Assembly: GCA_017467185.1 (NCBI GenBank)
Contig: JAFTSS010000085.1
Coordinates: forward strand, 1 to 64,000
Length of the DNA stretch: 64,000 nt
Direction of reading: 5' to 3'
DNA from: Paludibacteraceae bacterium
Lineage (GTDB): Bacteria > Bacteroidota > Bacteroidia > Bacteroidales > Paludibacteraceae
Below the pieces are notes generated by a model. The model saw only the letters and a list, made by a program, of their open reading frames with translations, was not told where the DNA came from and did no database searches. Of this stretch, positions 9,366 through 16,761 are shown one piece after another; the first letter of the stretch is position 1, and every line of letters starts with the position of its first letter. The position numbers were made by a program, and so were the translations under genes.

Positions 9366-9726
9366 CGTTTCTGCAAAGTTAGTCATTTTTTTTTAATTGA
9401 GCAATAGTGCAAAACTTATGCCTGTGGCGGATTTTTATTAGTTTTGTTAAAAAATCTTGTGTTGTTTTATTGGATTTGTTAATAAATTACTGTGTTTTTG
9501 TTAAATTACGACTATTATTTGTAAAATATTTAGCATTTAGTGTTAAATTAACGTTAAATTTTAATTTTACGCTTGCTATTTTGTTAAAAAGTTGTACCTT
9601 TGCAGTGTCAAAACGAATTAACTTAGTTTTGGAGGTTTTTTTATAGATTATAGATTATAGATAATGTGGACAGAAGTTTTGCGTGAGCAAGGCTTCTGTT
9701 TTTTTTGTAAGGATATGGCAAAAAAA

Positions 9727-9754
9727 GTAGAGACGCAAAATTTTGCGTCTCCAC
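9727..9754. repeat. palindromic element gtagagacgcaaaattttgcgtctccac (family GAGACGCAA-N-TTGCGTCTC)
   Basis: Near-perfect inverted repeat in an intergenic region. Confidence 0.7.
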
Positions 9755-9854
9755 TAAAATTTTTTTCATAAAATTAGGGGGAGTGGTCGAAGACCGATGG
9801 GGTTAATACTTGTTATCTGTAATCTGTACTCTATTATCTGTTATTTGTATTATA

Positions 9855-11717
9855 TCAAAGTACTATCTTTTCCACCTCATCACCAACAGCAATCACATAC
9901 ACCCCACGTGGCAATGATAATTGAGCATCACGACCAGTATAAATTAATCGACCATTTACATCAAAGAGTTGATAATCTGCCGACAAACCATCCACATATA
10001 GCACACCGCCCACTGAATATATTGCAATATTTGCATTTTCGGTATTTTCGATTGAAGTATCTTCATCACTTTCTACTACATTGATAAATTCGCCCCAATA
10101 TTCATCATTTGCGTATGCCTCACGAGCTCCTTCTGGCACAATCACAGGGATATTTCTGTTCACATCGAAGAATGTTTTTGCAAAAATAGTTGGAGGCTCG
10201 ATAGCATTCACATTGATTTGTTTCATACGACTACAGAGTGCAAAACAGTTGTCGCCAATGCGTTGTGTAGTCGATGGCAAAGCGAGCGAATCGAGATAAG
10301 TACAACCATAGAATGCCGCATCACCCACTTCGGTTACACCCTCTGGAATTACAAGATTTTCCAACGCATGGCAGTTGTAGAATGCCCAGTTACCGATGCG
10401 TTGCAATGCCACATCGCCATCGGCTGCAGCACGTTTCATGCGCGATGCGAACGATTTAGCCTCAGCTTGACCACCAAATGTGATAGATTTGATAGAACGA
10501 CAATTCTCGAATGCTGCATCATTGATTTCTACCACCGAAGCAGGAATATTTATCTCTTTCAACTGATAGCACTCTGCCATAGCCTTAAATCCAATAGTTT
10601 CGAGATTGCCAGGCAACATCAAGTTCTCCAATTTATAGCAGTCGTAGAATGCCAAGTCGTTGATTGCAGTGTTTGTAGTACCAGCGAGGTCGATAGTATG
10701 AAGCGATTTTTTCGAGCGATTAATATAGTTAAAACCATTCTCATCCAACTCTCCATCAGTGATATGCACCTCAGTCAATTTATTAGAAAATTGGGTTTGA
10801 AATTCTTCCTTAATCGAATTAACCAATTTAGCAGGGCCTTGGAAATAACGAAGGTTTTTAGTTGCGTTAAGAGGATGCCATGTTTCGTCACTAGATTCAT
10901 AAAAATCAAGTTCTACATCATCCCCAAATTCACAAATCAAAGTATCAAGAGAAGAAACCATAGGAATCCATTCATCGCTTTCTTCATCATAAATATTATA
11001 ACAATAAAAAATGCTTTCACCAATATATTTAACTCCACTACCAATTTTTGCATACCTTAATTGCGCACAATCCCTAAAGACTCGTCCTCCAATACAAACT
11101 ACACTATTAGGAATTTCTATTGATGTAAGTCCAGAACATCCCCTAAATGCACTTTCTCCAATAAAAGTTACGCGATTGGGAATTGTGATTGATGTGAGAG
11201 CAGAATAATTATAAAATACATAATCCTTAATAGAGTCAACATCTTCTGGTACAACTACATCTGTTACTTTTTTATTATTTAAATATAAATTTTCTGCATA
11301 GTGTAGGGGGTTAGCAGTACTACAATTCTTAAATTCAATATCAAACCATGCGCCTACATCAAATATATATACATCAACAAGTGAATAACAAGCCAAAAAA
11401 GCATCTCCACCAATAGTTGTTACACTATTTGGGATTGTGATTGAAGTGAGAGATGAACATCTAGAAAATGCAAAATCCCCAATCTCAGTCACACTATATT
11501 CTACACCATTATAGGTTACTTTTTCAGGAATAACAATTTCTGATTGAATATATCCCGCACCATTATCATCCCATAAATACCCCCCATCATTCGTAACAGT
11601 AGCCGTCTTATTCTCATGGTCGAAATCGTAATAGATACCATCGATTTCGGCTTCATAGGCGAATGCCATTGTTGCACTACACAACAATGCAATCAATAAA
11701 AAGTAAATTTTCTTCAT
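9855..11717 (-). CDS. BspA-type leucine-rich-repeat surface protein with T9SS C-terminal sorting domain
   Basis: 620 aa with a signal peptide and repeated IPNSVTxIGxxAFxxCxxL modules (LRR_5/BspA type). The C-terminal approximately 80 aa resemble a Por secretion tail. Confidence 0.7.
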   Translation of the reverse strand: MKKIYFLLIALLCSATMAFAYEAEIDGIYYDFDHENKTATVTNDGGYLWDDNGAGYIQSEIVIPEKVTYNGVEYSVTEIGDFAFSRCSSLTSITIPNSVTTIGGDAFLACYSLVDVYIFDVGAWFDIEFKNCSTANPLHYAENLYLNNKKVTDVVVPEDVDSIKDYVFYNYSALTSITIPNRVTFIGESAFRGCSGLTSIEIPNSVVCIGGRVFRDCAQLRYAKIGSGVKYIGESIFYCYNIYDEESDEWIPMVSSLDTLICEFGDDVELDFYESSDETWHPLNATKNLRYFQGPAKLVNSIKEEFQTQFSNKLTEVHITDGELDENGFNYINRSKKSLHTIDLAGTTNTAINDLAFYDCYKLENLMLPGNLETIGFKAMAECYQLKEINIPASVVEINDAAFENCRSIKSITFGGQAEAKSFASRMKRAAADGDVALQRIGNWAFYNCHALENLVIPEGVTEVGDAAFYGCTYLDSLALPSTTQRIGDNCFALCSRMKQINVNAIEPPTIFAKTFFDVNRNIPVIVPEGAREAYANDEYWGEFINVVESDEDTSIENTENANIAIYSVGGVLYVDGLSADYQLFDVNGRLIYTGRDAQLSLPRGVYVIAVGDEVEKIVL

Positions 11718-12090
11718 AATAATTAAAGTTTTAGTGATTAATATAATTCGTTTTATAAAATAGAGACTATAGGTGAAATAGTAACTATAGGAGCAATAGA
11801 GACTATAGAAACTATAGTAGAGGGGAGATTAAACAGGCGTTAATTTAATATTAGGTGTATCAGGTGGTTATTAAAAATGTACAAATAAAGTGGATGACGG
11901 TTTTTTTCGGCAGAGGTTGTTTGCACCTTCGATAAGGGTAGGTTGTGGATTTAGTTGTACATTTTGACACAAAAAAAACGTGGAATTCGACTGTTGTCGT
12001 TCCACGAACTGAGGCTGTCGCATTGCCTTGAAGTCGGAACAGACAACGCGAAGCCCACGCTGAAATGTATGTATATTTATACCCCTACAG

Positions 12091-12112
12091 GAGACGCAAT
12101 ATATTGCGTCTC
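12091..12112. repeat. palindromic element gagacgcaatatattgcgtctc
   Basis: Perfect 10-bp arms. Confidence 0.7.
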
Positions 12113-12312
12113 TACAGGTATGTACAACATTCCCGTAGGACATCTAACGTTGCAATGCTCTTGACTTCATTAGAAACTGCGACATTTCAGTTCGTCAGAA
12201 CAAAGCGTCGATAAACGCCTATTTATTATTTATATCTTGCGATTCCCACCCGATTGCCCAATCAGCGTGAGTTTCACACCGCAAAGGTAGAAATTATTTT
12301 TGAAATATCCAA

Positions 12313-13251
12313 TTATTCCGAAATAATTTTTACGTTTTCGGCTATTATTGTTTTGTATTTTTCTTTTATTTCGTTTGGTAAGAACGATAGGTCTATCATT
12401 TCATACCATGCAGGAATAGTTTTATTGAATTTTTTGAATATATTGGCAATAGTTTTTTCTTCTAAACCTGAATTTTGCATTGCTATTTCGAAGTCTATTT
12501 TTTTTATCTTCCGTTTTTTGCTATTCAGATTCAATGCCAATTCTTCAGTGTCTTCTGGTAAAACTAATTGTGTTGATAAAAGGTTGTAAGCAGGAGATAA
12601 TATATGTCCGTATCCGATTGGTTTATATAGTGAAAAGTTCTTTAAATGCATATCGGAATTTCCAACTAACCACGAGAATAGAACTATTTCCCAAAATTTG
12701 ATGATGTCTAATTTTGGTACAGATGAATATTTGGCAATTAGTTTCGCTATTTGTTCGTATGACCCTTTATATTTATGCTCTGTTAATCTTTCTGATAATT
12801 GACACATATCTTCCATTGCAAGTTTGTATCCATTGTTTAATCTATCAATGCGACGAGTCAAATAGCAAAGGCGACCATCGGCAATTGGTATCAATGTATG
12901 AGGTACAACGTCAATACCAGATATTTCAGCCAAATGCATAGTTAAATCTTCGATTTCTGGTAGATTGGCATAAATGTCGGTTTGAGGTTTTAATATGTAT
13001 CGTCCCCATAAACCAACAATAGTGAATCTTTTTTCTTTGCTCTCTGTAGTGATATCTAACGAAAGTTTAGCTTGAACCCCAGTTAGTGTGGTTTGACTGC
13101 GAATGACTTCTTCTGCCAATTTGTTTAAATCAGCATGATGAAAATTGGCAATTGGGCACGTTGTATCGTTGAATATTTTTTTTGAACATGTGCGATGAAA
13201 CCCAATTTCGCCATTTTTTAATTCTTTGTAACAATAAAAACATTTAGCCAT
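12313..13251 (-). CDS. HipA-like serine/threonine kinase toxin (HipT-like: kinase core without the HipA N-terminal subdomain, with N-terminal CxxC...HxxC zinc ribbon)
   Basis: 312 aa. It carries the catalytic-loop motif VGNSDMHLKNFSL typical of the HipA family and an N-terminus CFYCYKEL...HRTC. Confidence 0.75.
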   Translation of the reverse strand: MAKCFYCYKELKNGEIGFHRTCSKKIFNDTTCPIANFHHADLNKLAEEVIRSQTTLTGVQAKLSLDITTESKEKRFTIVGLWGRYILKPQTDIYANLPEIEDLTMHLAEISGIDVVPHTLIPIADGRLCYLTRRIDRLNNGYKLAMEDMCQLSERLTEHKYKGSYEQIAKLIAKYSSVPKLDIIKFWEIVLFSWLVGNSDMHLKNFSLYKPIGYGHILSPAYNLLSTQLVLPEDTEELALNLNSKKRKIKKIDFEIAMQNSGLEEKTIANIFKKFNKTIPAWYEMIDLSFLPNEIKEKYKTIIAENVKIISE

Positions 13252-13255
13252 ATCT

Positions 13256-13582
13256 CTATTCTTCTTCTTTTATTTCAATGACACTAATAGCTCCTATGCA
13301 ATCACGGCAACAAGCTAATAATAGCGACATGCGGTCGCGATTGTTTATTTTCCAATTGCGCTCTGCTATATCAAGTAGCCAGCCTTCAGGTATTAAACCA
13401 TCAAAAAATGGGAATAACACTTTGTCGTGGTATGTTTCTTCTTGCAGTGGTAGTGTCAAACTAATTGGTTCGGCATCTGGTTGTACTAGATATTCTTTCT
13501 TGTACTGAAAAGAATAACCATTGTCTGTTTCTCGTAAAATGCCAACTTGTCTGTCTCGTAGATATATATATGCTTGTTTCAT
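13256..13582 (-). CDS. HipA N-terminal-domain protein (HipS-like third component)
   Basis: 108 aa. A 5-nt gap separates it from the kinase gene, and its start overlaps the hipB-like stop. Its length and position match HipS of the HipBST systems. Confidence 0.65.
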   Translation of the reverse strand: MKQAYIYLRDRQVGILRETDNGYSFQYKKEYLVQPDAEPISLTLPLQEETYHDKVLFPFFDGLIPEGWLLDIAERNWKINNRDRMSLLLACCRDCIGAISVIEIKEEE

Positions 13583-13785
13583 TATTTATCTCTATCTTGT
13601 TTGATTGGACCAACTTCGTAACCAAATAGATTTAATACTTGGTTCAATTTGTCAAGACGTAAAGTCTCTTTACCTTGTTCTAAATCACGAATAAAACGTA
13701 ATCCAACTCCTGATTTTTCGGATAAGTCAATTTGTGTTAGGTGATATTGCTTGCGCATTGTTTTTATAAATTCTGCAATTGTCAT
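13582..13785 (-). CDS. XRE-family helix-turn-helix antitoxin (HipB-like)
   Basis: 67 aa containing the HTH LTQIDLSEKSGVGLRFIRDLEQGK. Confidence 0.75.
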   Translation of the reverse strand: MTIAEFIKTMRKQYHLTQIDLSEKSGVGLRFIRDLEQGKETLRLDKLNQVLNLFGYEVGPIKQDRDK

Positions 13786-13806
13786 AGTTGTTTTTTTGTC
13801 GATTAT

Positions 13807-13906
13807 TATACCTTATAGGGTATAATTTATTGTTTAATTATTTATTTTATACCCGAAAAGGTATATTTTTGTTCTTATTTGGTGATATTATACCCGTTCG
13901 GGGTTA
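13807..13906. promoter_or_regulatory. three palindromic operator-like sites TATACC-N6-GGTATA upstream of the hipB-like gene
   Basis: tataccttatagggtata (13807-13824), tatacccgaaaaggtata (13848-13865) and the imperfect tatacccgttcggggtta (13889-13906). Confidence 0.5.
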
Positions 13907-14208
13907 TTTTGTGTTGCAAAGGTAGAAATTATTTTTTGAATATCCAATTATTCTAAAATATTTTTTTATTGGTGGTCTGGTAAAAAATAAAGCAATTATT
14001 CAAACTGTTAATAAACAAAGGGGAGATAAGATAATCTTATGAGAGGGGGAGTTTTTAGTTCGACGTTTTCAACGTCGTAGAGTGTGGGGAGTTTTCTTCT
14101 TCTGCAGGTAATTTTTGCGATATCGCTTCGCTTCTCGCAAAAATCACCCGCAGTTACGCATAATTCGACGTTTTCAACGTCGTTGTATCTTGAATTCTCC
14201 TTAATTTT

Positions 14209-14452
14209 AACGTGAGTTCGATATAACTTTATAGCACACGGAGCCAACGGTCTTGAGCCTTGGCGAAAATGCACAGATGACACGGAGATTTTTCATTACA
14301 TACCCCTCTGTTCAGCAGACATATTGAGCGGACGCACGAGCCGTGCGTCCCTACAATGAGGAGGATTTTTGCCGAATTCGCTCTTTTGCTACGCAAAAAA
14401 CGCTCTACGGATTGTACGGATGCCATACGGCATTTTATATCGAACTGACGTT
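14209..14452 (+). mobile_element. MITE-like element family B, copy 2 (244 bp, 18-bp TIRs, flanked by duplicated TTAATTTTA)
   Basis: TIRs aacgtgagttcgatataa / ttatatcgaactgacgtt. It contains an internal palindrome gacgcacgagccgtgcgtc. Confidence 0.7.
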
Positions 14453-14592
14453 AATTTTATTGTGAAATTATAAATATTTTAATTCGCATAGGTTATTTCG
14501 TTTATATGAATTATCATAATATAATTTTTAGCGGACAGTAATAATTTTTTAATGATGGATATTAGAACTTTGTTTTGAATTTATAGAAATCC

Positions 14593-14632
14593 TTTTACAT
14601 AAACAACGGCTGAACCGCATTGCGATTCAGCC
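14593..14632 (-). terminator. long perfect hairpin aaacaacggctgaa-loop-ttcagccgttgttt downstream of the ppiD-like gene
   Basis: 14-bp perfect stem. There is no strong U-tract, which is common in Bacteroidetes. Confidence 0.4.
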
Positions 14633-14658
14633 GTTGTTTATGTAGGATATTATTTTGA

Positions 14659-16761
14659 TTAATAGTATTTATAGCGCATATCTTCGATGTTAGCAGCTTC
14701 TTTGAGTGCTTCGATTGCGAGATATGGGTTCATGTAAGCTTCGCGAGTTTCGAGCATTACCATTTCTTCTTTTTCGTTGTAAGGTTTAGCAGCTTCTTCT
14801 TTGCTTATTACTTTGAAGATATAAGCTCCTGTGTTACCTTTGATAGGAGCCGATTCTTTATCAACTTCAGCACCTGCTACGCGAGCGAAGAGTGATGGTT
14901 CGTTACCGATTGAACCAGCATAAGTACTTGCGAAGTTGATGTTGCGAACTGTATCAACACGGAAACCTTCAGTTGCGAGTTGATCCATTGTTTTCTTATT
15001 CATTTCAGCAACAAGAATGTCTCCTTTTTTCTCTTTGCGGAGTTCTGATAAAAGTTGTGGACGTACGCTTTCGATTGAGCGATAGCCTTCTTCGTTGTGT
15101 TTGTCAACAGCAACTGCGATGATTTTGTCTTCAACTTCAAAGATGTCGCTGATAGCACCTTCTTTGTTTTCGAAAATCCAACGAACAACTTCGCGTGCTT
15201 TTTTCACGTTGTTGATTTCAGTAGCGTTGATGTCGAGGTTTTTAGCTGTCATCACAACGTAGCCATTGTTTGCAGCTTCAGCTTCGAGTTTTTCGATAGT
15301 GTTGTTATCAACGATAAATTGTTTCATTTTGTTGTAAAGTTCTGCGTGAGTGCGAGATGTAGCATCTACAGTGCGAGCAAGAACTGCAACTTTTGCTTTT
15401 GTAGTTTTTTGTCCAAGTTCGTTAACATAGAAGAGGTTGATGTCGTTGCCTTCTTTTACTTGGAACATATTTTTTGCAGGTGTAGAGAATGCAGGAGTAG
15501 CGATTTTCTTTTCTAAGCCCATTTCGCTTACCCAACCGATTTCGCCACCATTAGCTGCGTTTTGGAGAAGTGAGTGAGTTTTTGCTAATTCTGCGAAAGA
15601 TGCACCTTTTTTCACTGCATCCATAATGCTATCAGCTAAAGCTTGAGTAGCTTCGGCTGTTTCGCGGCGGAGATACATGTTGCTCAAATTAACAGAGTCA
15701 ACTGATGCGATGCCGTTTTCAACGATGCGAGCCATTTTGTATGTGTTGTCAACAAAAATAGGACCCATAACATCGCCTGCTTTGCCTGTAAATGCAAATT
15801 CTTGGAAGTCAGCATCAATTTGCTCTTTAACCAAGTTTTCGCCACGATATTGTACGTCAGAATTTGAGTTTACTACAGCTGCGATGTCTTCAGTTGCAGA
15901 GAATTCGTCTTTTAAATTGTTGATCCATTTTTCAACTTCAGCAAAATCTTCAGCCGATGGTTTGATGTCAACAACGATATATTTAACGTCAGCAGATTGT
16001 TTTTGTTTGAATTGTTCTTTTTTCTTATTGTAGAGAGCTTTGATTTCTGCATCAGATACGTTGATTGTTGAGTCAGCAATAGCGAAATAGTTTTTCATTG
16101 CATACACAGCATCAGCCGATACTTTTGCATTGTCGTAAGCATATTTAGCTTCTAATTGGTTTACAACCAAAGCTGCATTCAATAAGTTAGTGTATTTTTC
16201 TTGGAGACGATTAGTTTTGATTGCGTGCTCCCAATAACGCCAATAGTTACGATAGAGACGGAGTTGCTCGTAAGGGATGTTTTGAGTAGCTTCTTCGCTG
16301 TCGAGCATAGCGATGAATTGTTTTACTACATTAACATCGAATTGACCATTTTCGTTGAAGAACATTTGGTTGTTCATCATCATTGGGCTGATGTTGTTGC
16401 CAACGAGCATGTCAGCCAATTCGTTTTTAGTTACAGTCATACCGATATTTTCGCATTCGTCGCCAATAACTTTTTCGGTTACAGTGCTTTCCCATACCAT
16501 TTGACGGATTTGTTCTGTCATTTCGTCATTGATGTTGTTGCCATATTGCAATTTTACTACATCATTGAATTGGTCCATTGTTTCGGCATAGTCGCGAATT
16601 TTAACTTTGTCGCCATTGATAACAGCTACGTTTGCGCTGTTTTCTTGGAAATAAGTTGAACCTGAATTAACCAAGTCTCCTACGATGAAGACCACCAAAG
16701 CCAAACCTACTACAATTAAGAGTAAGAGACCTTTACTTCTAATTTTTTCTAATGTTGCCAT
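14659..16761 (-). CDS. ppiD: PpiD/SurA-like periplasmic chaperone, peptidyl-prolyl isomerase family
   Basis: 700 aa with an N-terminal membrane anchor followed by a large periplasmic region. This architecture is characteristic of Bacteroides PpiD. Confidence 0.7.
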   Translation of the reverse strand: MATLEKIRSKGLLLLIVVGLALVVFIVGDLVNSGSTYFQENSANVAVINGDKVKIRDYAETMDQFNDVVKLQYGNNINDEMTEQIRQMVWESTVTEKVIGDECENIGMTVTKNELADMLVGNNISPMMMNNQMFFNENGQFDVNVVKQFIAMLDSEEATQNIPYEQLRLYRNYWRYWEHAIKTNRLQEKYTNLLNAALVVNQLEAKYAYDNAKVSADAVYAMKNYFAIADSTINVSDAEIKALYNKKKEQFKQKQSADVKYIVVDIKPSAEDFAEVEKWINNLKDEFSATEDIAAVVNSNSDVQYRGENLVKEQIDADFQEFAFTGKAGDVMGPIFVDNTYKMARIVENGIASVDSVNLSNMYLRRETAEATQALADSIMDAVKKGASFAELAKTHSLLQNAANGGEIGWVSEMGLEKKIATPAFSTPAKNMFQVKEGNDINLFYVNELGQKTTKAKVAVLARTVDATSRTHAELYNKMKQFIVDNNTIEKLEAEAANNGYVVMTAKNLDINATEINNVKKAREVVRWIFENKEGAISDIFEVEDKIIAVAVDKHNEEGYRSIESVRPQLLSELRKEKKGDILVAEMNKKTMDQLATEGFRVDTVRNINFASTYAGSIGNEPSLFARVAGAEVDKESAPIKGNTGAYIFKVISKEEAAKPYNEKEEMVMLETREAYMNPYLAIEALKEAANIEDMRYKYY

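What the first reader, a model, noticed from the sequence alone, without database searches (positions are those of the whole stretch)
12313..13785. Tripartite HipB-HipS-HipT-like toxin-antitoxin cassette with a zinc-ribbon-bearing kinase
Three tightly coupled minus-strand genes run in the order HTH (67 aa), HipA-N-terminal-domain protein (108 aa), HipA-like kinase (312 aa). The first two overlap by ATGA and the last two are 5 nt apart. The kinase carries the HipA catalytic-loop motif GNSDMHLKNFS but lacks the HipA N-terminal subdomain, which is supplied in trans by the 108-aa protein. This is the architecture reported for the HipBST systems of enteropathogenic E. coli. Here the kinase additionally begins with a CxxC...HxxC zinc ribbon that canonical HipA/HipT lack. 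The module sits in an accessory gap between a BspA-like adhesin and core genes. A Bacteroidales HipBST variant with an extra metal-binding module would be a distinct sub-type.
Basis: partly seen in the sequence, partly recalled or inferred. Interest (0 to 1): 0.7.

Follow-up and report, generated by a model that had tools for sequence, protein, structure and literature searches.

The report
Ordinary HipBST toxin-antitoxin cassette, toxin mutated
This is a regular three-gene HipB-HipS-HipT toxin-antitoxin cassette of a type already known to be common in Bacteroidota; its cysteine/histidine "zinc" motif is a feature of almost the whole clade rather than a new sub-type, and this copy's kinase carries a mutation at a magnesium-binding residue that probably disarms it.

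Summary
The three minus-strand genes are real and lie at the stated coordinates. They encode HipB (67 aa, HTH), HipS (108 aa, Couple_hipA) and HipT (312 aa, HipA_C). The closest solved relative is Legionella HipT(Lp) (E 1e-56; Foldseek TM 0.81). GenBank already holds the proteins (MBQ8722339-41, Paludibacteraceae MAG). Lin et al. already reported that HipBST(Lp)-type systems are widespread in Bacteroidota.

The CxxC...HxxC motif is real but not distinctive. It occurs in 119/120 close homologues and in 110/116 complete representatives at ≤50% mutual identity. It sits in the N-terminal "mini-domain" already described for E. coli HipT. The E. coli and Legionella mini-domains are homologous but keep only the first Cys. 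The model suggests a knuckle plus helix (treble-clef-like), not a zinc ribbon.

Three further results:
- Three palindromes (TATACC-N6-GGTATA type) lie between a Bacteroidetes-type promoter and hipB, and are conserved in five distant loci.
- This kinase has Asn223 where 108/110 representatives and all near-identical sister variants have Asp. This is the position of the inactivating D233Q mutant of E. coli HipT, so the toxin is probably disarmed.
- The cassette lies in a 4.9-kb variable island flanked by ppiD.

Verdict: new member of a known kind; low-to-moderate interest.

The parts
13917..13924 (-). Bacteroidetes-type -7 promoter box TACCTTTG, 139 nt upstream of the hipB ATG
   Evidence: Matches TAnnTTTG. 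The same box and the following 'CAACAC' are conserved in L001, and a TATCTTTG box in L002. Promoter function is inferred, not shown.
13889..13907 (.). Operator-like palindrome O1 (ATAACCCCGAACGGGTATA), degenerate
   Evidence: Core ACCC-N5-GGGT at -119. The equivalent site is conserved in L001-L003 and L005.
13848..13865 (.). Operator-like palindrome O2, TATACC-N6-GGTATA
   Evidence: One of only two perfect matches in the 64-kb window; 0.09 expected by chance. Conserved position in five other loci.
13807..13824 (.). Operator-like palindrome O3, TATACC-N6-GGTATA
   Evidence: The three sites are spaced about 40 bp apart.
13582..13785 (-). hipB: 67-aa Xre-type HTH protein, presumed autorepressor
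   Evidence: HTH_3 1.6e-8; TIGR03070 couple_hipB 82.2 bits, above its cutoff of 71.65. GenBank MBQ8722341.1.
13256..13582 (-). hipS: 108-aa homologue of HipA N-subdomain 1, presumed antitoxin; E66-G67-W68 motif
   Evidence: Couple_hipA 1.3e-28; TIGR03071 5e-35. HipS(Lp) 1.5e-16; H. influenzae HI_0666 1.3e-14, with PEGW aligned; E. coli HipS 2e-10.
12313..13251 (-). hipT: 312-aa HipA_C kinase lacking N-subdomain 1
   Evidence: HipA_C 1.9e-43. HipT(Lp) 1e-56 and HipT(Ec) 1e-15. Foldseek TM 0.81 to 7vkc and 0.75 to 7ab5. GenBank MBQ8722339.1.
13108..13251 (-). N-terminal mini-domain (residues 1-48) with C4, C7, H19, C22
   Evidence: The four residues are invariant in 30 homologues. They are 94-98% conserved in 110 diverse representatives. 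pLDDT is about 90 in the full model and 79 for the domain modelled alone. No Pfam or NCBIfam model covers it.
13066..13098 (-). Gly-rich loop 52-SQTTLTGVQAK-62; T55 and T57 align with HipT(Ec) S57/S59, and T55 with HipT(Lp) S54
   Evidence: Alignments. The autophosphorylation sites are from PMC10627512 and PMC9325769.
12637..12663 (-). Catalytic loop 197-GNSDMHLKN-205 (D200, N205)
   Evidence: Conserved in 108-109 of 110 representatives.
12583..12585 (-). Codon AAC = Asn223 at the Mg-binding Asp position (PAYD); the sister strain has GAC
   Evidence: D in 235 of 242 regex matches, the other seven not being genuine exceptions, and N in none. D in 108/110 aligned representatives. D in sister variants 98.4-99.4% identical. 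A single G>A change versus L091. Aligns with HipT(Ec) D233.
13916..13966 (.). Direct repeat copy A, ending at the hipBST -7 box
   Evidence: 51 nt, 90% identical to copy B, spacing 1635 nt. Only two copies in the window, 0 expected.
12281..12331 (.). Direct repeat copy B; overlaps the last 19 nt of hipT and carries a second TACCTTTG box facing the LRR gene
   Evidence: The same promoter-like motif precedes a surface-protein gene in L015.
9712..14595 (.). Variable island (LRR_5 gene plus hipBST) between ppiD and a Na+/H+ exchanger gene
   Evidence: Absent from six related contigs (L011-L014, L017, L027), where ppiD is followed within about 50-120 nt by sequence homologous to window <=9713. L015 has a different island at the same spot. 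Sister strain L091 has hipBST but not the LRR gene.

Best explanation
This is a type II, tripartite HipBST toxin-antitoxin operon of the Legionella-type (HipBST-Lp) subclade, in a Paludibacteraceae genome.

Shown here: the three-gene architecture, the family memberships, the conserved operator-like palindromes, the conserved CCHC mini-domain and the Asn223 substitution.

Inferred mechanism:
1. A Bacteroidetes-type promoter (-7 box TACCTTTG) gives one transcript. Its roughly 130-nt leader holds three TATACC-N6-GGTATA-type palindromes about 40 bp apart.
2. HipB dimers bind these palindromes and autorepress, as HipB does at the TATCC-N8-GGATA operators of E. coli hipBA (the E. coli operators are from my own knowledge, not tested here).
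3. hipS and hipT are translationally coupled to hipB (1-nt overlap, 4-nt gap).
4. HipS binds the N-lobe of HipT and blocks the Gly-rich loop with its E66-G67-W68 motif. It therefore acts as the antitoxin.
5. Free HipT would autophosphorylate on T55/T57 and phosphorylate an essential target. An aminoacyl-tRNA synthetase is the precedent, but the target of the Lp-type clade is unknown.
6. The four invariant residues C4, C7, H19 and C22 most likely hold one zinc ion. This would staple the N-terminal mini-domain, a knuckle plus helix leading into the Gly-rich loop.

In this strain the Mg-binding Asp is Asn223. The kinase is therefore probably inactive or strongly attenuated (my estimate about 0.7), and the module is a recently disarmed copy.
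For: Architecture and profiles.

Solved relatives: HipT(Lp) 1e-56, HipT(Ec) 1e-15, HipS(Lp) 1.5e-16. The structure model matches 7vkc at TM 0.81, HipT(Ec) at 0.75 and HipA at about 0.6.

Operators: only two perfect palindromes occur in 64 kb, both upstream of hipB, with 0.09 expected. Three sites at equivalent positions occur in Paludibacteraceae, Aphodosoma, Muribaculaceae, Sphingobacteriales and Pedobacter loci.

CCHC motif: found in 119/120 close homologues, in 110/116 complete representatives, and at 103-108 of 110 aligned representatives per position.

Mini-domain homology: the profile aligns 'DFHKSCSKKIFG' with HipT(Ec) 'GYSTQGLKRLSG'. P0233 aligns 'CLMCCEPL...YHYRCL' with HipT(Lp) 'CPITYEKI...YSQRGL'.

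Asn223. HipT(Ec) D233Q is described as 'enzymatically inactive' (PMC6581861; PMC10627512).

Selection and sequence quality: pN/pS for hipT is 0.065 against the sister strain and 0.115 against L001. The exact N223 protein is on 9 contigs from more than one assembly, so it is not a one-off sequencing error.

Prior report: HipBST(Lp) homologues are reported as widely distributed in the FCB superphylum.
Against: No toxicity, neutralisation, DNA-binding or metal-binding experiment exists for this locus or for any Bacteroidota member I could find. Asn can still ligate Mg2+, and D-to-N has not been tested in a HipT, so some activity may remain. Only two non-synonymous differences separate this copy from its sister, too few to show relaxed selection after D223N. 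The full model has a mean pLDDT of only 70.5, with low confidence in the Gly-rich and catalytic loops. I could not read coordinates, so the Cys/His geometry was not measured. The mini-domain has no significant structural match. HipS(Lp) lacks the Trp, so the Trp-plug mechanism is carried over from the E. coli clade.
Confidence: 0.8

Rival explanations
1. The module is a fully functional toxin-antitoxin system. Asn223 still coordinates Mg-ATP well enough for toxicity, and the substitution is neutral or merely tunes activity.
For: All three ORFs are intact, and the other catalytic residues (K62, D200, N205) are present. pN/pS against the sister strain is low at 0.065. The N223 allele is found on 9 contigs.
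Against: None of 242 homologues or 110 aligned representatives has Asn here. The four sister variants at 98.4-99.4% identity all have Asp. The amide substitution D233Q at the same position inactivates E. coli HipT. The second private change, G244S, also hits a position that is Gly in 95/110 representatives.
Confidence: 0.22
2. One reading: this is a distinct Bacteroidales HipBST sub-type, defined by an extra zinc-ribbon module that canonical HipT lacks.
For: The two structurally characterised HipTs (E. coli O127, L. pneumophila) do lack three of the four ligands. No HipBST paper in the searchable library mentions zinc.
Against: The region is not an added module but the HipT mini-domain, residues 1-41 in E. 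coli, and it aligns with it. The ligands are present in about 95% of diverse representatives, including non-Bacteroidales loci (Pedobacter, Sphingobacteriales) and fused HipA-like proteins. The ligand-less forms are therefore the exceptions. The predicted fold is a knuckle plus helix, not a ribbon.
Confidence: 0.05
3. The cassette's main role is anti-phage defence by abortive infection, or stabilisation of a variable island, rather than persistence or growth control. The kinase would be triggered by infection.
For: It sits in a variable hot spot that in another strain carries a different small two-gene module I read as TA-like, unverified, plus a surface-protein gene. Relatives are found on Bacteroidota plasmids. 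There are weak PADLOC matches to candidate system PDC-M03 (E 2e-4 and 2e-6).
Against: The PADLOC matches are weak and partial. There is no match in 50,697 phage records. No defence genes were identified next to it. The probable loss of kinase activity argues against a current defence role in this strain.
Confidence: 0.15
4. The conserved Cys/His cluster is not a structural zinc site. It could be a redox-sensitive disulfide switch, or a site for iron or another metal.
For: Metal identity cannot be read from sequence. The host is an anaerobe, where Cys-based oxygen or redox sensing would make sense (inference).
Against: The C-x2-C ... H-x2-C spacing, with His as third ligand in 108/110 cases and a knuckle-plus-helix model, is the classical zinc pattern. 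The non-significant Foldseek hits are mostly zinc domains such as RING, LIM, PHD and UBZ.
Confidence: 0.12

Closest known systems
HipBST(Lp) of Legionella pneumophila (Lpg2368-2370; PDB 7VKB/7VKC/7WCF, 8EZR/8EZS)
   Same: Same gene order and sizes (72/102/312 aa versus 67/108/312 aa). HipT is 39-40% identical over residues 52-308 (E 1e-56) and the model matches at TM 0.81. HipS matches at E 1.5e-16. It belongs to the same subclade that Lin et al. report as widespread in Bacteroidota.
   Different: HipT(Lp) keeps only the first Cys of the mini-domain (MKHCPITYEK...YSQRGL), whereas this protein has all four ligands. HipS(Lp) has Ile where this HipS has Trp68. HipT(Lp) has the Mg-binding Asp, whereas this one has Asn223.
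HipBST of enteropathogenic E. coli O127:H6 (PDB 7AB3-5)
   Same: Tripartite architecture. HipS is the antitoxin and has an E-x-W motif. The Gly-rich loop has two hydroxyl residues (S57/S59 versus T55/T57). The N-terminal mini-domain is absent from HipA.
   Different: Only about 21% identity. Its mini-domain lacks three of the four ligands: the aligned segment has Ser and Gly at the H19 and C22 positions, while the first-Cys-only N-terminus is from my memory of the sequence. Its HipB is longer, about 100 aa. Its target is TrpS, whereas the target here is unknown.
HipBA of E. coli K-12 (HipA, 440 aa)
   Same: Same kinase core and catalytic loop. The HipS-like N-subdomain 1 is part of HipA (E 1.5e-10). 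HipB is an autorepressor at repeated palindromic operators (from my own knowledge).
   Different: It has a single-chain toxin, HipB is the antitoxin, and there is no mini-domain. Foldseek TM is only about 0.6.
Fused HipS-mini-domain-kinase proteins (427-457 aa) found among the representatives
   Same: They have Couple_hipA plus HipA_C, with the same CCHC segment immediately before the Gly-rich loop. They are 36-44% identical to this HipT.
   Different: They are one polypeptide. I could not tell whether they correspond to the 'HipBA(Bu)' clade of Lin et al., and their genomic context was not examined.

Membership tests
HipBST tripartite toxin-antitoxin system | Three adjacent, same-strand, tightly coupled genes in the order hipB-hipS-hipT | tested here: met
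   1-nt overlap and 4-nt gap. The same order is seen in L001-L005 and L091-L093.
HipBST tripartite toxin-antitoxin system | HipT is a HipA_C kinase core without HipA N-subdomain 1 | tested here: met
   HipA_C 1.9e-43 covers residues 55-281, and there is no Couple_hipA match in the 312-aa protein. Best PDB matches are HipT(Lp) and HipT(Ec).
HipBST tripartite toxin-antitoxin system | HipS is a protein of about 100 aa homologous to HipA N-subdomain 1 | tested here: met
   Couple_hipA 1.3e-28; TIGR03071 5e-35. Matches HipS(Lp), HI_0666, HipS(Ec) and the HipA N-terminus.
HipBST tripartite toxin-antitoxin system | HipB is a small Xre-type HTH protein encoded first | tested here: met
   HTH_3 and TIGR03070, above cutoff.
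HipBST tripartite toxin-antitoxin system | Complete kinase active site: Gly-rich loop with Lys, catalytic Asp and Asn, and Mg-binding Asp | tested here: not met
   G58/Q60/K62, D200 and N205 are present, but the Mg-binding Asp is Asn223. This bears on activity of this copy, not on ancestry.
HipBST tripartite toxin-antitoxin system | N-terminal mini-domain preceding the Gly-rich loop, absent from HipA | tested here: met
   Residues 1-48 align with the HipT(Ec) and, via P0233, the HipT(Lp) N-termini. Described in PMC10627512.
HipBST tripartite toxin-antitoxin system | HipT is toxic, HipS (not HipB) neutralises it, and the three proteins form a complex | not testable with these tools
   Needs expression and pull-down experiments.
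HipBST tripartite toxin-antitoxin system | Autoregulation through HipB binding to promoter-proximal palindromes | tested here: inconclusive
   Conserved, statistically unexpected palindromes are present. Binding was not tested.
Zinc ribbon | Two zinc knuckles, each on a beta-hairpin, forming a three-stranded sheet | tested here: not met
   The models show one short hairpin (residues 3-10) carrying C4/C7, with H19/C22 at the start of helix 20-27. This is model-based only, and the coordinates were not inspected.
Treble-clef zinc finger | Ligands 1-2 on a knuckle and ligands 3-4 at the N-terminus of a helix; a structural match to known members | tested here: inconclusive

The most novel reading that the evidence does not exclude
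The CCHC mini-domain is the ancestral and still dominant state of HipT-type kinases and of fused HipA-like relatives, and it is a working metal- or redox-responsive element. By holding or releasing the segment that leads into the Gly-rich loop, it would gate HipS binding, autophosphorylation or target docking. The two HipTs studied so far would then be degenerate exceptions. This would give the 'mini-domain of unknown significance' a function and might help explain why the Lp-clade target has not been found.
Probability: 0.25. Interest if true: 0.55.

Novelty: new member of a known kind. Interest (0 to 1): 0.3.

Why it matters
For the window itself it matters little. The locus is a routinely annotated HipBST cassette in a gut or rumen Paludibacteraceae MAG, and the toxin is probably dead.

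Two by-products could be useful to people who work on Hip kinases:
- The N-terminal mini-domain, called 'of unknown significance' in the E. coli structure paper, carries four Cys/His residues in about 95% of the Lp-type clade. These are as conserved as the catalytic residues. I found no mention of this in the searchable HipBST literature.
- A conserved three-site operator array (TATACC-N6-GGTATA type) is a ready-made test of HipB autoregulation in Bacteroidota.

The natural D223N allele, next to 99%-identical D223 alleles, offers a matched pair for testing toxicity.

Tried and rejected
- Rfam scans, both the gathering scan of the whole window and the E-value scan of 11650-14700, gave nothing credible in the flanks. 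The only hits were hairpin-like miRNA and sRNA chance matches at the ppiD terminator.
- tblastn of HipB, HipS and HipT against the flanks and the whole window found no second copy and no remnant of another cassette next to repeat copy A.
- The sigma-70 promoter scan was no better than shuffles (16 sites versus 13.2 expected) and was ignored in favour of the Bacteroidetes -7 box.
- A PDB sequence search with the N-terminal 69 residues gave only a MYM zinc finger at E 0.46, which is not significant.
- PADLOC gave weak partial hits to candidate PDC-M03, too weak for a membership claim.
- The phage collection gave no match.
- The 143-aa ORF called upstream of hipB in L091 is split by a 1-nt indel in the window and is full of palindromes. 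I treated it as non-coding.
- I could not obtain the E. coli HipS sequence to align Trp65 directly. The equivalence of W68 rests on the E-x-W spacing and on the alignment with H. influenzae HI_0666.
Full report
**1. Observation**

The ORF listing and the sequence show three minus-strand genes at the coordinates given: 13785..13582 (67 aa), 13582..13256 (108 aa) and 13251..12313 (312 aa). The first two share one base (TAATG), not ATGA. The last two are separated by 4 nt (AGAT), not 5.

The kinase contains LVGNSDMHLKNFS and begins MAKC4FYC7YKELKNGEIGFH19RTC22.
- The 312-aa protein matches HipA_C (1.9e-43, residues 55-281).
- The 108-aa protein matches Couple_hipA (1.3e-28) and TIGR03071 (5e-35).
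- The 67-aa protein matches HTH_3 and TIGR03070 'couple_hipB' at 82 bits, above its cutoff of 71.65.

**2. What it is**

Against solved structures, the kinase is closest to Legionella HipT(Lp) (1e-56, residues 52-308). Next come E. coli O127 HipT (1e-15) and HipA (1e-9). The small protein matches HipS(Lp) (1.5e-16), H. influenzae HI_0666 (1.3e-14), the HipA N-terminus and E. coli HipS.

An AlphaFold model (mean pLDDT 70.5) matches 7VKC at TM 0.81, E. coli HipT at about 0.75 and HipA at about 0.6.

The exact proteins are already in GenBank. They are MBQ8722339.1 'HipA domain-containing protein', MBQ8722340.1 'HipA N-terminal domain-containing protein' and MBQ8722341.1 'helix-turn-helix transcriptional regulator', from a Paludibacteraceae MAG. 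The window is identical over 14.1 kb to an ENA metagenome scaffold.

The homologue search saturated at 8,000 hits, nearly all about 313 aa long. Relatives on Bacteroidota plasmids carry the same two-gene annotation. Lin et al. (bioRxiv 10.1101/2022.11.26.518041) already state that HipBST(Lp) homologues are 'widely distributed ... particularly [in] the FCB superphylum'. The locus is therefore a member of a known, common kind.

**3. The 'zinc ribbon'**

The motif is real but not special to this locus:
- It is present in 119 of the 120 best homologues.
- It is present in 110 of 116 N-terminally complete representatives of 50%-identity clusters, at 35-67% identity to the query. The spacer is 8-19 residues, and the third and fourth ligands are H and C in 108 cases.
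- In a MAFFT alignment of 110 representatives, C4, C7, H19 and C22 are conserved in 108, 103, 103 and 103 sequences. This compares with K62 (109), D200 (108) and N205 (108).

The region is not an add-on. [quoted passage not shown] A profile of the present family aligns 'kegekDFHkSCskKIFG' with E. coli 'RDEQRGYSTQGLKRLSG'. A CCHC-bearing representative (P0233) aligns 'CLMCCEPLSSEESRYHYRCL' with HipT(Lp) 'CPITYEKISDQE-NYSQRGL'. HipT(Lp), and as far as the aligned segment shows HipT(Ec), have a homologous mini-domain that has lost three of the four ligands. I recall the E. coli N-terminus as MANCRILL, which was not retrieved here.

None of the four HipBST papers or the Hip phylogeny paper mentions zinc or cysteine in this context. 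A library search for HipA with zinc or CxxC found nothing relevant.

The models place C4/C7 on a short hairpin (residues 3-10) and H19/C22 at the start of helix 20-27. pLDDT is about 90 in the full model and 79 for the domain alone. This is a knuckle-plus-helix (treble-clef-like) layout, not a ribbon.

Fold searches with the 48-residue model were not significant. The weak Foldseek hits were mostly zinc domains. The first was the FANCL RING, the protein on which an earlier and since rejected E3-ligase prediction for Lpg2370 residues 4-28 was based. I could not inspect coordinates, so zinc geometry is untested.

Fourteen representatives are single-chain proteins of 408-457 aa, and eleven of them keep the four ligands. 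The six that I scanned have Couple_hipA, then the mini-domain segment, then HipA_C (five of the six with the four ligands intact). The mini-domain is thus older than, or independent of, the split.

**4. Regulation**

Upstream of hipB lies a Bacteroidetes-type -7 box (TACCTTTG, 13917-13924). Between it and the start codon are three palindromes at -119, -80 and -39:
- ATAACCCCGAACGGGTATA
- TATACCTTTTCGGGTATA
- TATACCCTATAAGGTATA

The pattern TATACC-N6-GGTATA occurs only twice in the 64-kb window, both times here, with 0.09 expected. Equivalent sites at similar spacing occur in five loci from Paludibacteraceae, Aphodosoma, Muribaculaceae, Sphingobacteriales and Pedobacter, whose flanking genes differ. 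This is good comparative evidence for a HipB operator array. Binding itself is inferred.

**5. The kinase active site**

The Gly-rich loop (SQTTLTGVQAK) keeps hydroxyl residues at T55 and T57, the positions of HipT(Ec) S57/S59. T55 is also the position of HipT(Lp) S54. HipS has E66-G67-W68, which aligns with PEGW of HI_0666. HipS(Lp) has Ile at that position. In E. coli, Glu63 and Trp65 of HipS reach into the active site.

The Mg-binding Asp of the 'PAYD' motif is Asn223 here (codon AAC, 12583-12585). Evidence on this position:
- Asp is found in 235 of 242 homologues. The seven exceptions are regex offsets or truncated and frameshifted fragments, and none is Asn.
- Asp is found in 108 of 110 aligned representatives.
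- Asp is found in four sister variants that are 98.4-99.4% identical.
- Against the sister contig L091, the change is a single G>A transition.
- The position aligns with HipT(Ec) D233, whose D233Q variant is 'enzymatically inactive'.

The only other difference from the nearest allele, G244S, also hits a position that is Gly in 95/110 representatives. The N223 protein is encoded on nine contigs from more than one assembly, so it is not a single-assembly artefact.

hipT shows purifying selection overall, with pN/pS of 0.065 against the sister strain and 0.115 against L001. The substitution is therefore recent. I infer a disarmed or strongly attenuated toxin (about 0.7). D-to-N has not been tested in a HipT.

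**6. Target**

HipT(Ec) phosphorylates TrpS. For HipT(Lp), neither TrpS nor GltX rescues growth, and the target remains unknown, with PheS as a candidate. The target here cannot be inferred.

**7. Context**

In six related contigs (ppiD product 84-92% identical), ppiD is followed within about 50-120 nt by sequence homologous to window positions at or below 9713. Window 9712-14595 is therefore a 4.9-kb variable island. Another contig (L015) carries a different 5.4-kb island at the same spot. It has a small two-gene module that I read as TA-like and a 1,114-aa surface protein. A sister strain (L091/L092, 96.8% nt identity) has hipBST there but lacks the LRR_5 gene.

The cassette is bracketed by a 51-nt direct repeat (12281-12331 and 13916-13966; 90% identity; no other copy in the window). 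Each copy ends with the TACCTTTG box. A similar promoter-like motif precedes the surface-protein gene of L015. Copy B probably drives the LRR gene, and copy A is a duplicate joined to the hipBST leader. How the duplication arose is unresolved.

**8. Verdict**

The 'distinct sub-type with an extra metal-binding module' is not. This is a new member of a known kind, already annotated, and this copy is probably inactivated. Residual interest lies in the clade-wide and apparently undescribed CCHC mini-domain and in the conserved operator array.

Noticed in passing
window 12281-12331 and 13916-13966: A 51-nt direct repeat (90% identity) brackets the hipBST cassette. Each copy ends in a TACCTTTG -7 box, and copy B overlaps the last 19 nt of hipT. 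Both copies are also present in sister strain L091. The origin is unresolved; tandem duplication, recombination between promoters and an att-like site are all possible.
   Followed up: partly
window 9712-14595; loci L011-L017, L027, L091, L092: The ppiD / Na+/H+-exchanger intergenic region is a hot spot for variable cargo. It is empty in six relatives. It holds hipBST only in a sister strain, and hipBST plus an LRR_5 (BspA-like) gene here. In L015 it holds a different small two-gene module that I read as TA-like (unverified) plus a 1,114-aa surface protein.
   Followed up: partly
proteins P0146, P0165, P0171, P0174, P0185, P0196, P0211, P0219, P0229, P0238, P0251 (representative search): These are single-chain proteins of 427-457 aa, 36-44% identical to this HipT, with the four-ligand CCHC segment before the Gly-rich loop. 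The five that I scanned with Pfam (P0146, P0165, P0174, P0196, P0211) have Couple_hipA, the CCHC segment, then HipA_C. They look like fused or unsplit relatives. Their gene neighbourhoods were not examined.
   Followed up: partly
window hipT codon 244 (12520-12522) and hipS codon 21 (13520-13522): Besides D223N, this strain has two further private substitutions, HipT G244S and HipS D21N. All three involve a first-position G>A change relative to the sister allele.
   Followed up: partly
window 13967-14595: This roughly 630-nt non-coding stretch between ppiD and the cassette is rich in hairpins and short repeats. They include TCGACGTTTTCAACGTCG (twice) and GGACGCACG-N3-CGTGCGTCC. A 143-aa ORF called here in L091 is split by a 1-nt indel in the window, so it is probably not a gene.
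   Followed up: partly
window 11759-11819: Three tandem, overlapping copies of an 18-nt-period repeat (AATAGAGACTATAGGTGA-like) lie just upstream of the LRR gene start codon (11717), inside its long leader.
   Followed up: no
mini-domain model m42d6ab6dea18; PMC9325769: The best Foldseek hit of the mini-domain, though not significant, is the FANCL RING (4CCG). This is the same protein whose similarity to Lpg2370 residues 4-28 led to an earlier E3-ligase prediction that was later rejected.
   Followed up: no
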